A stretch of 64,000 nucleotides of DNA. It comes from Balanoglossus misakiensis (taxonomy: Eukaryota > Animalia > Hemichordata). The notes under the pieces were generated by a model. The model was not told where the DNA came from. It worked only from the letters and a program-made list of their open reading frames with translations, and ran no database searches. Location: the NCBI GenBank assembly GCA_040954595.2, contig CM082585.2, positions 11,745,863 to 11,809,862 of the forward strand. The letters are read 5' to 3'. Below, piece after piece: positions 44,236 to 51,876 of the stretch. A program made the translations under genes and the position numbers. Each line of letters starts with the position of its first letter. Position 1 is the first letter of the stretch.

Positions 44236-47200
44236 ATGACAACAAGGCTCGAAGAAGATACACTTTCAGTACTTTCAATAATTAGCAGCACATCAGGTGG
44301 CAAGTCTACGTTCAAGGACAAGACATTGAGGAGCAATAATGGACAGAAAATAGAGAGTATGAAAGTATCCGAAGATCAATGTGATGACGGTTTTGGCGGA
44401 CAGGCGAAGTCATGGAAAGTGAAAGTCCAAGAGTTCGGCAGCAAGACAACCACGCATGGCATACCTCACATTATTGAAGCTCAGAGTACTTGCAGCTTCA
44501 CATGGTGGACTGTCATTTTCGCGTTGGCTGCGCTGTCTCTTTTAGTCCAGGTCGGTCTGCTTGTAATGCAGTATTTCGAACGCAATGTCAATGTGGAGGT
44601 AAGTAATCGAGCCAAGCAAGCCAACAAACAAACAAACAAACAAACAAACAACAAACAGAAAGCAATTCAGACAGACGAATACTTATTGCAAATACTGAAA
44701 CATACAATGTATATTGAAAATATCGAAAACCGGACAAAGTAACTAATTAACTCAGATAATGTCCAAATGAACGACGTTTCCCCATTTTCACGACAGTTAA
44801 TCAGTCTCATAAAATACTTAATTTTGTTAAATAGGTTCAAATGGTCACAACCACACAATTATCATTCCCAAGCGTCACGGTTTGCAACACCAATAAGCTT
44901 CGAAGGTCAGCTATCAGAGATTCGGAGTACAGTGAATTATTGGTTTTCGAAAGTGAACTTGTTATACCATACTACGGTAAGTGGTAGACCCGTACCTATA
45001 CCCCATAGTCGAATTAAATTACAATGAAGCATTTCAATTGAACCATAATAGAAGTGTATATTTTGATAATTGTTATAAGACTGTAAACACGTCTATTTTC
45101 AGTGCCCTGTTTGCAAGGTGATTTCGAATGCTCCAACGGCAGACATTGCATAAAACCGTTCCATCAATGTGACGGTATTCACCACTGCCCGGACTACAGC
45201 GATGAAGTTAATTGTACCTATGGTATGCATTTTTGATTCTTTTTACTTTTAAGTTAAAGCTCAGGTTTCTCCAGATATAATTGACAAGCCTTTGGGACTG
45301 GGTGTGGCAACGATAGGGCAACACCCAGCCCCTTTATCTGTGGTAATTATTTTTACTGGGGGAGGGGGTGAGAAAATTAATGTCCATATTAGTTTTCTCA
45401 CAGCAAACTAAATTGAAATGCATATTTAATTGCTACTGGTCTTCCTTTTCAAGGCCTCTGTGGCGAAGAACAATTTCGGTGTAGACAAGGCAGCGAAGAG
45501 GGTGTGTGTATTCCGGCGCATGCGAAGTGTGACAGGCAGTTTAATTGTTACGATGGCGAAGATGAAGACGACTGTGGTGAGAATTGACGGACTATAAGTT
45601 GACATTTCAATATCATATTAATTTCATAGAAAAAAAAACAAAAACACATGTTTTTGCGACGAATTACACGTGAATATGAAACTTCTTTTTCTCTTGCGTA
45701 GACTGTGATCCCGCGACAGAATTTCGTTGTATCATATCCAATGAGTGTGTGCTCACGATAGCCACGTGTGATGGCACATTCGACTGTCGAGACGGAAGCG
45801 ATGAAAGTACCAGCCTATGCCGTAAGTAAACACAGCTATGGCCAGTTCATAGACCGCTGCTGTAAGAGGTAGACAGACAGACAGACAGGCATACGGACAG
45901 ACATACAACCAGACACTTGTATCATAAACATTTGCATATCGAGGATTTTCATCATGGACACTATTTCTTCTTTCGTCATTCTCTAGCCGCGCCTTTGGTC
46001 AACCTAGCTTTAGGCCAAGCAACACGTGGACGGCCCGCGGCAAGCCCCGCCTGGTTGGCGGTCGACGGGAATGGAGAGACCTGTTTCAATTCCGAGACAT
46101 CGGATTCTCCATTTTGGGAGGTCAAGCTTGATGGATATTACACGGTTCACGCAATCCGAATCACCCACGTAGTAACACTGGAAAGTGAGTACCATCATAG
46201 ACAGTAAAGTCTGTGGCACCATAAGGAAAACAGCATTTTATGGTATAGTTAATTCAGATGGAGCAGTTAGTCGGACAAGAGATTTTCTACTTTTCTTATT
46301 TACTGATCCATATCTTCACGGCATCGTACAGGGCAGATGTGAGATCTCGTCTCTACTGTCTCAAGTCAGGTATGTGGATATGGTCAAGCTGATTTTCATT
46401 TTTGTCCTCTCTTCTTCCCAGTACGGTCGTTAGAAAACGCTGTGATACACGTTGGTTCCGAAATGTATTACCAGTCGAATGGGAAATGTCGATCTGCCCT
46501 TCAACCAGCCGAAGTGGCTTCAGAGACTTTCACTGTGACATGTGACACGCCGATGGCCGGGAAACTTATAACTATTGTAGATGTTGACGATAATGATACT
46601 CTGACGCTATGTGAGGTTGAAGTTTTAGGCACTGGTAGGATAACTTGTGTTCGTTTCTTGACTTTCTTGGTAAAAGTTATCGATCCATCCATCCATACCT
46701 ACATACCAATATGCCTCCAATTTCGATTTTGTTTTGTTTTTGCTTGTTGTTTATTTATGTGCACATTTTCTCGGCAGGATATGTTTACTCAAATATCGCT
46801 TTAGGAAAACACGCCACACAAAGTAGCCGGTACCGTGACGGCAGCGCTCTCAAGGCAATCGACGGAGAGACTGATACAGACTATTCTCATCGTAGCTGCA
46901 TCCACACCGAGTTGGAATACGAACCGTGGTGGAAAGTCGACCTCGGTGATACCTACGAAATCAGTCACGTGACTATATCGAACAGGGATGATTGCTGTTG
47001 TGAGTTTGTTAGTTAGTCACTTGATTCACTCTTTTCTCAAATGTTTCTTGGCGCTTTGTGAAGATTCCAATCACTTTCATGTAAAATTGTGCTCACGCGA
47101 CTTACTTTCATATAGTGTATACACAAATCACTTTCACTGTGAAGTGATAACTGTGTTAAAATTTCCTTCGCCACCTTTTTCAGTGTGGAGATATTGACAC

Positions 47201-47484
47201 ACATAATACTTTCGCTCCACAGCTGAACGCCTGATTGGATCTGAGGTGCGCGTTGGTAATAACGAAACTTTTATCACGGAGAACACACTATGTGGAGACA
47301 AGGTTGACACCAACGATACAGAAATCGCGACTATAATGGTCAATTGTGAATCAAAGTTGATTGGAAGATATGTCAGTCTGCAGATAGTGAACAAGACTGA
47401 ATACCTTCATGTTTGTGAAATCGAGGTGTACGGAAAAGGTGCGTTCACAAAGTCAATCCCCATTTAGAACTCTTACTGACTGAC

Positions 47485-50500: not shown

Positions 50501-51876
50501 TGAAGATGCGTTGTTTAATTTCTGTGAATGTTCAGTGTGTCTGTATAAACAACGACAGAGATGTCAGATGCTAAACAAAACACAAGGTAAAGACTTGCCT
50601 ACGCACAACAAGAAAGACAACATTCGTGGGGGAACAAATTCATTAAAACCATCCGCTCTTTGTTGATGAATTCTGTCGAATCTGGGTTAGATGGTACAAA
50701 TGCAATCATTACCCAAAAATCCAAGTTTTCATTCATGTTTCCATGGGATCTCCTCTTTTCTCTGTTTATGTTAGTGCAAATGTTCCTTCCTTATCTATTC
50801 ACAATTCTTTCCACAGATATGTGTCACAAAATGGTGCAGTTCTTGTACAATAATGGACTAATTCCTTGTGATTGTCGTCCGTCATGTGGGTGAGTATGAT
50901 CGCTGCGACTACTACCGATACCCCCATTAAAACTGCACCACCACAATCACCACCACCACCACCACCGTCACAGCAACAACAACCACAAACAACAATGGCC
51001 ACCACAACAACAATGACGTCGACGACAACAACAAAAGCAACCACATCTCTGTTTCTACTTCGTCGGATATAAAAACCATTCTTTGGTCACTTTTCTGTTA
51101 CAGGGATGTCTCTTTTTCAACATCGCTCTCACAATCTCTATGGCCATCAGATGTGTATCTGGTACGTTAAATATTGAACCCCGTCTCATAATTAGAAGAA
51201 TGTAGAAGTTACATATACTTCGTCTATTACTTTGCTGAGACAAAATATCTGCCTAGATTCCAGTGCAGAACAAGACATCTAGTATTGAAAAATAATACGA
51301 TTCCGTCATTTATCCACAGAGAAATCTCTTGAGATCAATACTTTGGAAGAATGAAAAACTGAACAATGTTTACGACATGGAATCGGCAAGGTAATTACGT
51401 ACAGTAACAGTTAAACTGTTATTGTCAACTGATTATTACCACTTACAAAATGCAAGGTTTTCCATTGACTTATGCGTATAATTATTTCAAACAGGTCCAA
51501 CTTGGCACGACTGGAAGTATATTTCTCAAGCCTGAATTATGAGGCAGTTACAGAAAGAGACGCATATTCTGTAAGTTCTGTTTTGATGACGTTTGTGTTA
51601 TTTCTTTTCATTTCCTTGTGTGGATTATTCAGTTATACTATAAGCAAGCTGAGGAAGGGAATTGTGATTTAAGACGCCTAGTACTTTTTCTTGTTTCTTG
51701 ACGTTCATCTTTGTCTCTTTCAGTGGGAAGATTTGCTCAGCGATATCGGTGGTTCATTCGGACTCTACGTTGGCATTTCACTGATCTCTGTTTGCGAATT
51801 CATCAACTTTCTTTTCGCAGTTTGTCTGTCTATCAGTCGTTCAAAAAGAGTCACCGCACCAAGTTACAGTGGTTGA
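44236..51876 (+). CDS. DEG/ENaC (amiloride-sensitive sodium channel family) subunit with inserted LDLa x4, F-type lectin x3 and PAN/Apple domains; 23 exons, ~1,269 aa
   Basis: Exons 44236-44598, 44835-44976, 45103-45222, 45454-45576, 45702-45821, 45987-46184, 46422-46634, 46778-46999, 47223-47438, 47674-47901, 48043-48258, 48510-48800, 48982-49131, 49304-49607, 49763-49872, 49961-50124, 50263-50355, 50481-50586, 50817-50889, 51104-51161, 51320-51390, 51495-51570, 51724-51876 total 3,810 nt in one frame. Channel hallmarks: [11 protein letters not shown]1, [38 protein letters not shown], Cys-rich thumb, WPS, LEVYF, TM2 [22 protein letters not shown]. Confidence 0.92.
45103..45821 (+). other. 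Three LDL-receptor class A module exons within the DEG/ENaC gene
   Basis: [44 protein letters not shown]...[25 protein letters not shown]...[13 protein letters not shown]. Each has six Cys and an acidic D..DE Ca-binding motif, in a phase 1-1 exon. Confidence 0.92.
45987..48258 (+). other. Three F-type lectin (fucolectin/FTP, F5/8-type-C-like) domains, each split over two exons
   Basis: [18 protein letters not shown] and [12 protein letters not shown] starts; [31 protein letters not shown] ends. Confidence 0.9.
47476..47576. repeat. (GATT)n tetranucleotide microsatellite, intronic
   Basis: actgactgattgattgatt... run of about 100 bp. Confidence 0.95.
48510..48800 (+). other. PAN/Apple domain exon within the DEG/ENaC gene
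   Basis: [32 protein letters not shown]...VDYYQR fits the PAN C-x3-C...CRSFNY...C.LS...DYY pattern. Confidence 0.88.
48982..49131 (+). other. Fourth LDLa module exon within the DEG/ENaC gene
   Basis: [35 protein letters not shown]. Confidence 0.92.

What the first reader, a model, noticed from the sequence alone, without database searches (positions are those of the whole stretch)
44236..51876. Giant DEG/ENaC channel carrying a receptor-like LDLa/F-type-lectin/PAN array in its extracellular finger
Seen: one continuous 3,810-nt spliced ORF with both halves of a complete DEG/ENaC subunit. The HG motif, TM1 and FPSVTVCN lie before the insert; [11 protein letters not shown], the thumb and TM2 with a GxS filter lie after it. 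Between them sit 2,097 nt (699 aa) encoding LDLa-LDLa-LDLa-FTP-FTP-FTP-PAN-LDLa. Established: typical DEG/ENaC subunits are ~500-700 aa and trimeric, and the region just after the FPxxTxCN motif is the hypervariable finger, which holds the ENaC protease-released inhibitory tract and contributes to ligand sensing in peptide-gated members. Inference: this is an ion channel fused to glycan- and protein-binding modules, up to nine lectin and twelve LDLa modules per homotrimer. It could be gated by fucosylated glycans (egg jelly, mucus, microbes) or mechanically through a matrix tether. I know of no functionally characterised channel with this architecture, though similar models may exist in automated marine invertebrate annotations.
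Basis: partly seen in the sequence, partly recalled or inferred. Interest (0 to 1): 0.9.

Follow-up and report, generated by a model that had tools for sequence, protein, structure and literature searches.

The report
Sodium channel with swappable lectin antenna
This gene is predicted to encode an ENaC-type sodium channel subunit with a 700-residue chain of receptor and sugar-binding modules looped out of its outer 'finger', one member of an acorn-worm and starfish channel family that swaps these modules, which likely tie the channel to mucus or matrix and would let pull on that tie control it.

Summary
Observation confirmed: 23 exons, 3,810 nt, 1,269 aa, 22 of 22 introns GT-AG, with a 699-codon LDLa3-FTP3-PAN-LDLa insert in the finger. 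It is not a one-off. Collinear full-length relatives (39-49% identity) exist as unnamed RefSeq models in Saccoglossus and Ptychodera, and 16 FTP-bearing cores form one clade (99/96). That clade sits in a wider hemichordate and echinoderm family with a fixed LDLa frame and a swappable middle (FTP, kringle, PAN, CUB, HYR, SRCR, ShK). A model of a relative folds both halves into one ENaC-like subunit (Z 33). Correction: only FTP2 keeps the fucose-binding residues here, so about three sites per homotrimer, not nine. Best mechanism, inferred (0.4): a built-in glycan tether that passes force to the finger. There are no RNA or functional data. Ten literature searches found no description, but one key lectin survey was unavailable. 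Verdict: new variant of a known kind.

The parts
44236..44598 (+). Exon 1: cytoplasmic N-terminus, HG motif, TM1 (aa 1-121); may have an unseen upstream exon
   Evidence: (ASC 9.3e-06)
44835..44976 (+). Exon 2: FPSVTVCN and first finger helix (aa 122-168); phase-1 donor opens the insert
45103..45222 (+). Exon 3: LDLa 1, most conserved extracellular segment of the clade (64% mean identity)
45454..45576 (+). Exon 4: LDLa 2
45702..45821 (+). Exon 5: LDLa 3
45987..46634 (+). Exons 6-7 (45987-46184, 46422-46634): FTP 1, fucose residues absent
46778..47438 (+). Exons 8-9 (46778-46999, 47223-47438): FTP 2, intact fucose set H469, R496, D498, R503 with adjacent CC
47674..48258 (+). Exons 10-11 (47674-47901, 48043-48258): FTP 3, His and last Arg replaced (M617, E651)
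48510..48800 (+). Exon 12: PAN domain, least conserved module (32%)
48982..49131 (+). Exon 13: LDLa 4, closes the insert
49304..49607 (+). Exon 14: rest of the finger with the family PPxW motif and GHQ
49763..50124 (+). Exons 15-16 (49763-49872, 49961-50124): GNCYTFN, palm and beta-ball strands
50263..51161 (+). Exons 17-20 (50263-50355, 50481-50586, 50817-50889, 51104-51161): cysteine-rich thumb
51320..51570 (+). Exons 21-22 (51320-51390, 51495-51570): knuckle and last palm strands
51724..51876 (+). Exon 23: TM2 with GIS filter motif, short tail, TGA stop
   Evidence: (ASC 7.1e-09)

Best explanation
The gene is predicted to encode an intact ENaC/FaNaC-like channel subunit whose finger carries a looped-out chain of binding modules, and that chain likely acts as a built-in tether to fucose-bearing mucus, glycocalyx or matrix, so that pull on it would shift the finger and change channel opening. 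Shown by sequence and calls: an intact channel core; the insert position after the first finger helix; a conserved LDLa1-3 ... LDLa frame with a lineage-swapped middle; an intact fucose motif in FTP2 only. Predicted: both halves fold into one DEG/ENaC subunit, and FTP2-FTP3 pack like a tandem fucolectin (model of a Ptychodera relative). Inferred, untested: trimer assembly, fucose binding, avidity from three copies, and force passing through the LDLa frame to finger, thumb and gate.
For: Core and insert evolve as one gene: on a tree built from the C-terminal core alone, all 16 FTP-bearing rows form one clade (99/96). In the AlphaFold model of relative P0123, residues 155-1139 superpose on ENaC gamma (Z 33.2, 350 aligned, rmsd 3.0) and 348-643 on tandem fucolectin MsaFBP32 (Z 27.8, 286 of 293, rmsd 4.4). 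The fucose set is kept in FTP2 in 12 of 17 rows and in FTP3 in 11 of 16. The insert starts at a fixed register: first LDLa within 45 aa of the CN motif in 41 of 42 complete LDLa-bearing fingers. The swapped payloads (kringle, CUB, TSP1, SRCR, HYR, PAN, ShK, FTP) are, from my own knowledge, binders of large molecules and surfaces, not small-ligand pockets. Linkers between modules have pLDDT under 50 and pTM is 0.47, which fits a flexible chain that could pass tension better than a binding-induced shape change. Precedent: ENaC shear sensing uses N-glycan tethers to matrix and MEC-4 needs matrix proteins (PMC10148893, PMC9108448, passages); ENaC's gating GRIP domain lies between finger helices 1 and 2 (PMC6197857, passages).
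Against: No functional, expression or localisation data exist here. Low pTM and linker pLDDT may reflect a shallow 30-row alignment, not flexibility. Three RefSeq isoform models of one Ptychodera paralog drop LDLa3, LDLa1-2 or LDLa1-3, so the N-side frame is not obligatory. Two of three lectin sites are degenerate in this gene, and 5 of 17 rows lack the full FTP2 set. The last LDLa is close to the core in only 33 of 42. That the insert equals the GRIP position rests on the model's secondary structure and one weak alignment to FaNaC (E 1.3). Nematode EGAS channels, the nearest fusion precedent, gave no current in an oocyte acid screen (PMC10424705, passages).
Confidence: 0.4

Rival explanations
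1. Address label only: the modules would anchor or cluster the channel at a glycan-rich site, while gating comes from protons, a peptide or a Na+ leak as in other DEG/ENaCs.
For: Flexible linkers in the model; LDLa1-3 droppable in isoform models; payload freely swapped between paralogs.
Against: Insertion is always at the same point of a gating domain (41 of 42), and LDLa1 is better conserved than the channel's palm and thumb (64% vs 50%), which suggests a specific contact.
Confidence: 0.25
2. Ligand-gated receptor-channel: multivalent fucosylated ligands (microbes, food particles, gametes) would cross-link the three lectin arms and open the pore without force.
For: F-type lectins form three-fold trimers that recognise microbial glycans and are expanded in hemichordates (PMC5712786, passages). 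Paralogs vary at the binding residues, and there are at least 7 Saccoglossus and 9 Ptychodera models, as in a receptor repertoire.
Against: FTP2 lies about 260 residues after the N-side entry and 300 before the C-side re-entry, with low-confidence linkers between. No coupling path is shown.
Confidence: 0.15
3. Protease-removable cap: the insert would hold the channel shut, like ENaC's GRIP domain, until a protease cuts it off.
For: Position between finger helices matches GRIP by inference. LDLa, CUB, SRCR, kringle and PAN are, from my own knowledge, typical of protease stems.
Against: The only extracellular R-x-K/R-R motif (743-746) is not conserved in the 17 homolog rows shown. Conserved fucose residues are not explained by a cap.
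Confidence: 0.1
4. Non-conducting or accessory subunit that works as an adhesion or uptake receptor, or only within heterotrimers.
For: Many family members give no current alone, EGAS among them.
Against: HG, thumb cysteines and TM2 with GxS are kept, TM2 at 67% mean identity across the clade.
Confidence: 0.07
5. Annotation artefact: the modules belong to a nested or skipped set of exons and the channel is made core-only.
For: All insert junctions are phase 1, so a core-only splice is in frame. Homologs are automated models.
Against: Same order and register in 16 models from two genera. No start, signal peptide or stop was seen for a nested gene in the exon chain. None of 16 isoform or near-copy pairs compared skips the whole insert, though one 482-aa model ends inside it. 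Isoform breakpoints match this gene's exon borders.
Confidence: 0.03

Closest known systems
ENaC alpha/beta/gamma (PDB 6wth, 9blr) and FaNaC (7yvb, 8on7); clade B DEG/ENaC
   Same: Two TM helices, HG, FPxxTxCN, thumb cysteines, GxS; best channel sequence hit of P0013 is ENaC alpha (1.7e-47); top structural matches are ENaC gamma (Z 33.2) and FaNaC (Z 31.7).
   Different: The finger holds about 700 aa of folded LDLa, FTP and PAN modules instead of the GRIP domain or a peptide site; family PPxW motif; no PPxY tail motif (motif recalled).
RefSeq uncharacterized proteins of Ptychodera flava (XP_070548202.1, XP_070538273-80) and Saccoglossus kowalevskii (XP_077869752.1, XP_077865309.1)
   Same: Same LDLa3-FTP3-PAN-LDLa architecture and register, 39-49% identity over the full length; XP_070548202.1 is the sister in the tree (100/99).
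   Different: Automated models with no function assigned; most keep the FTP3 fucose set that this gene and its sister lost.
C. elegans EGAS-1 to -4 (EGF plus ASC domain channels)
   Same: DEG/ENaC fused to extracellular repeat modules (name seen in PMC10424705).
   Different: EGF repeats, not LDLa, lectin or PAN. Position of the EGF repeats and relation to this clade were not checked. Silent in that oocyte screen.
F-type lectins: eel AAA (1k12), striped bass MsaFBP32 (3cqo)
   Same: Fold, DG calcium motif; FTP2 aligns without gaps from His to Arg-x-Asp-Cys-Cys; tandem FTP2-3 packing predicted.
   Different: Those are soluble lectins; here the domains sit inside a channel ectodomain, and two of three lack the basic triad.
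MEC-4/MEC-10 with matrix proteins MEC-1, MEC-5, MEC-9; ENaC N-glycan tether
   Same: What it likely works like: a DEG/ENaC tied to extracellular material.
   Different: There the tether is a separate protein or a glycan; here it would be part of the pore-forming chain.

Membership tests
DEG/ENaC superfamily | Two TM helices flanking a large ectodomain | tested here: met
   Hydropathy peaks at about 90-114 and 1233-1257; helices 123-152 and 1142-1186 in the relative's model
DEG/ENaC superfamily | HG, FPxxTxCN and TM2 GxS motifs; Pfam ASC | tested here: met
DEG/ENaC superfamily | Seven conserved disulfides (PMC6197857) | tested here: met
   14 core ectodomain cysteines plus one extra at 1111; thumb cysteine columns shared with homologs; pairing itself inferred
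DEG/ENaC superfamily | Hand-shaped fold formed by both halves | tested here: met
   On relative P0123, not the window protein: Z 33.2, rmsd 3.0, 350 aligned to 6wth_C
DEG/ENaC superfamily | Trimer assembly | not tested
DEG/ENaC superfamily | Amiloride-sensitive cation current | not testable with these tools
   Needs electrophysiology
ASIC subfamily | Histidine(s) just after TM1 (feature recalled, from no call) | tested here: not met
   No His in residues 112-131; ENaC and FaNaC rank above ASIC
ASIC subfamily | Groups with ASICs in a phylogeny | not tested
   No ASIC, ENaC or FaNaC reference rows were in the tree
ENaC subfamily | GRIP domain with protease sites between finger helices 1 and 2 | tested here: not met
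   Region holds LDLa, FTP and PAN modules; single RNKR not conserved
F-type lectin | F-type fold and DG calcium motif | tested here: met
   DG motif in all three modules; Z 21.6, rmsd 2.1, 149 aligned to 1k12 on the relative's model
F-type lectin | Fucose motif His ... Arg-x-Asp-x4-Arg/Lys, FTP2 | tested here: met
   H469, R496, D498, R503. Spacing is 26 residues, equal to AAA by gap-free alignment; the review writes 24
F-type lectin | Fucose motif, FTP1 and FTP3 | tested here: not met
   FTP1 reads N,V,T,S and FTP3 reads M,R,D,E at the four columns
F-type lectin | Binds fucose | not testable with these tools
   Needs glycan array or calorimetry
LDL receptor class A repeat | Six cysteines and acidic C-terminal cluster | tested here: met
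   4 of 4 above Pfam cut-off; alignments
LDL receptor class A repeat | Trp two residues before the fourth Cys, used for lysine-ligand binding (feature recalled) | tested here: not met
   H, A, A and G at that place in LDLa1-4
EGAS channels | EGF repeats fused to ASC | tested here: not met
   No EGF hit in any insert exon or in P0013, P0004, P0010

The most novel reading that the evidence does not exclude
Hemichordates and echinoderms have a programmable class of receptor-channels: a DEG/ENaC pore with a fixed LDLa socket in its gating finger, into which exon shuffling plugs different recognition modules. The lectin version would be a channel opened directly by fucosylated glycans on mucus or microbes, a pattern-recognition receptor that is itself the pore.
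Probability: 0.2. Interest if true: 0.93.

Novelty: new variant of a known kind. Interest (0 to 1): 0.72.

Why it matters
Whether and how DEG/ENaC channels are gated through extracellular tethers is a long-running question, hard to test because the tether is usually a separate matrix component lost in heterologous cells. Here the candidate tether is inside the pore-forming chain, bounded by phase-1 exons and with a predicted ligand (fucose), so it can be deleted, mutated, competed or pulled on directly. The family also shows repeated module swapping at one point of a gating domain in the sister group of chordates, giving a natural series of chimeras and a possible scaffold for engineered sensors.

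Tried and rejected
No RNA holder was listed for this DNA; that is no evidence either way. No whole genome is held, so paralogs and synteny outside the window are unknown; within the window tblastn with 5 relatives hit only 44.4-51.9 kb. Single-sequence fold of the short member P0164 failed (pLDDT 34) and was not used. Complex prediction of three FTP2-FTP3 copies was not available, so a lectin crown on the three-fold axis is untested. The window's own spliced protein was not folded; relative P0123 (lacking LDLa1-3) stood in. Two early exon models with wrong borders gave stops and were corrected. A conserved furin site was considered and rejected. 'Nine fucose sites' was rejected. Tree limits: 65 of 70 candidates kept (P0083, P0149, P0172, P0179, P0193 dropped for under 75% coverage); the two outgroup rows are not one side of a branch, so the root and the place of the five insert-free rows are unresolved. 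No FTP-bearing channel from Glandiceps or echinoderms appeared or 42-44, but these searches are not exhaustive. Literature: ten full-text searches (listings only) gave no paper on this architecture. Term look-ups found no 'LDL' in PMC9949801, PMC9234716, PMC10424705, PMC10507113, PMC9822975, PMC11175523 or PMC10148893, no 'amiloride' or 'lectin' in PMC4729200 and no ASC, ENaC or FTP term in its two supplements. The F-type lectin domain survey by Bishnoi et al. is not held and could list this domain pairing; supplements of the channel phylogeny papers were not searched.
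Full report
1. Observation. Reading 43,000-53,000 and building an exon chain gives 23 exons from 44,236 to 51,876: 3,810 nt, 1,269 aa plus stop, 22 of 22 introns GT-AG, 88-251 nt long. 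Exons 3-13 add 2,097 nt. Pfam on 19 exon-sized stretches confirms LDLa in exons 3, 4, 5 and 13, F5/8-type (FTP) hits in exons 6, 8 and 10, PAN in exon 12 and ASC on both sides. The second exon of each FTP, and core exons 14 and 18, gave no relevant hit alone. The three FTP modules are 26-43% identical to each other. All 12 junctions bounding the insert exons are phase 1, the pattern expected of shuffled exons (my knowledge), which also means a core-only splice is in frame.

2. It belongs to a gene family. Exon 14 alone found 2 proteins among 22 candidates, both Saccoglossus kowalevskii models with ASC, F5/8 and PAN. One of them found 283 hits among 7,989 candidates; of the 120 listed, 16 carry ASC plus F5/8, 7 from Saccoglossus and 9 from Ptychodera flava. 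The window model aligns end to end with them, best 48.9% over 1,221 columns with Ptychodera P0013, and its 22 junctions sit at matching positions in three homologs. The window is therefore most likely from an acorn worm (inference). A tree of the C-terminal core only (65 of 70 candidates, 338 columns) puts all 16 FTP-bearing rows in one clade (99/96) and the window gene beside P0013 (100/99). Two subclades mix genera or pair Saccoglossus with Ptychodera, so the fusion likely predates their split. RefSeq isoform models of one Ptychodera paralog lack LDLa3, LDLa1-2 or LDLa1-3, at points that match this gene's exon borders; none of 16 pairs compared skips the whole insert, and one 482-aa model ends inside it. 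I could not check the RNA support of those models.

3. The wider family: fixed frame, swappable payload. Searches with the core (23 hits among 2,129 candidates; 78 hits) brought channels from Saccoglossus, Ptychodera, Glandiceps, Acanthaster, Patiria, Amphiura and Anneissia (names; many hits stayed unnamed). They carry LDLa plus kringle, PAN, CUB, TSP1, SRCR, HYR or ShK; two hits were unrelated LRR proteins and five were insert-free channels from sea urchins, an annelid and a clam. Of 73 rows, 45 had a complete finger by my motif rule and 42 of these hold LDLa. The first LDLa starts within 45 aa of the CN motif in 41 of 42, the last lies within 70 aa of the finger motif in 33 of 42, and PPxW is present in 38 of 42 against 0 of 3 without LDLa. 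LDLa modules of the FTP clade find their best non-FTP match at the same position in 16 of 16 (first), 14 of 16 (second), 14 of 16 (third) and 12 of 14 (last) cases, from a pool of 177 modules. So the LDLa frame is shared with echinoderms, and FTP3-PAN is one payload in the slot. On the tree FTP needs 1 change, CUB 2, kringle 3 and PAN 4. Holding the 10 kringle rows together is rejected (p-AU 5e-05; test chosen after seeing the tree; P0186, named kringle by UniRef but without a Pfam hit, left out). These counts cannot tell gain from loss.

4. Structure. An AlphaFold model of Ptychodera isoform P0123 (1,187 aa, no LDLa1-3; 30-row alignment) has mean pLDDT 74 and pTM 0.47, with low confidence at the module linkers. 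Foldseek's top hits are MsaFBP32, FaNaC and ASIC1. Realignment gives ENaC gamma Z 33.2 (350 aligned, rmsd 3.0, model 155-1139), FaNaC Z 31.7 and ASIC1a Z 29.6, and residues 348-643 match the whole tandem fucolectin (Z 27.8, 286 of 293, rmsd 4.4). Both halves are thus predicted to close into one subunit around a looped-out insert. The insert follows the first finger helix; the PPxW tryptophan aligns weakly with a FaNaC finger tryptophan (E 1.3). ENaC's gating GRIP domain lies between finger helices 1 and 2 (PMC6197857, passages), so equivalence is likely but not shown.

5. Which modules can bind. The F-type fucose motif is His ... Arg-x-Asp-x4-Arg/Lys (PMC5712786, passages). FTP2 aligns without gaps to eel agglutinin across it. 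The full set occurs in 0 of 16 rows for FTP1, 12 of 17 for FTP2 (window included) and 11 of 16 for FTP3 (window and its sister excluded). This gene therefore offers about three fucose sites per homotrimer, not nine. Mean identity in the clade: LDLa1 64%, LDLa2 58%, LDLa3 53%, FTP2 50%, palm-thumb 50%, LDLa4 49%, FTP3 48%, FTP1 37%, PAN 32%, TM2 67% (13 rows). The LDLa modules keep their acidic clusters but lack the tryptophan I recall for lysine-ligand binding, so a structural role is plausible.

6. Mechanism. Best reading (0.40, inferred): a built-in tether. FTP2 grips fucosylated mucus, glycocalyx or matrix; three copies give avidity; movement loads the chain; the LDLa frame passes load to the finger, thumb and gate. 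It fits the flexible chain, the nature of the swapped modules, and the precedents of glycan-tethered ENaC and matrix-dependent MEC-4 (PMC10148893, PMC9108448, passages). Against it: no functional data, droppable LDLa1-3, degenerate sites, and silent EGAS channels in oocytes (PMC10424705, passages). Rivals: address label only (0.25), direct gating by multivalent glycans (0.15), protease-removable cap (0.10), non-conducting or accessory subunit (0.07), artefact (0.03).

7. Known or new. By motifs and predicted fold it is a DEG/ENaC; it fails the ASIC, ENaC and EGAS subfamily features I could test. A published phylogeny notes uncharacterised ambulacrarian clade B channels but its text has no 'LDL' (PMC10507113, passages). 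Ten searches and term look-ups in seven other channel and genome papers found no description of the inserts. Most subscription papers are not covered, and the lectin survey most likely to mention the pairing is not held. The architecture is already visible in automated annotation as 'uncharacterized protein'. The scan's earlier notes hold nothing on it; two notes on giant knuckle inserts in ASIC-like channels concern a different site and were not tested here.

8. Verdict. Real, conserved and apparently undescribed: a new variant of a known kind. Its value lies less in this one gene than in the family-wide socket-and-payload design and the direct test of tether gating it allows. Interest 0.72; most novel case (glycan-gated receptor-channel class) probability 0.2, interest 0.93.

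Noticed in passing
window 1-19510: 87-bp satellite in two arrays of opposite orientation (about 91 and 134 copies, 98-99% matches) that flip at about 7,885; GC skew flips with it. Its long ORFs are repeat artefacts.
   Followed up: partly
window 41914-42945 +: Galactose-3-O-sulfotransferase catalytic exon (E 9.7e-67) ends 1.3 kb before the channel's start on the same strand; any link to the lectin channel is untested.
   Followed up: partly
window 21798-22637 +: Alpha/beta hydrolase (Abhydrolase_3, E 5.9e-45).
   Followed up: partly
window 29619-30455 +: Cyclin N-terminal domain exons.
   Followed up: partly
window 34370-38002 -: TFIIS helical-bundle (Med26) exon plus a long acidic ORF; resembles IWS1 (label recalled).
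   Followed up: partly
window 53881-54144 +: DUF423 small membrane protein exon (E 2.9e-05).
   Followed up: partly
window 44164-44235 +: Open frame and an AG acceptor at 44,185-44,186 upstream of the ATG; an upstream exon could extend the N-terminus.
   Followed up: no
P0059, P0143, P0146, P0166, P0172: Relatives with 330-590 extra residues before the HG-TM1 segment, with FN3 hits in P0166 and P0172; a second kind of fusion, or merged gene models.
   Followed up: no
P0137; P0141: P0137 (1,940 aa) has two channel N-terminal segments and P0141 an N-terminal chromo domain; both may be merged annotations.
   Followed up: no
window 47477-47576: TGAT microsatellite of 25 copies in the intron between FTP2 and FTP3.
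   Followed up: no
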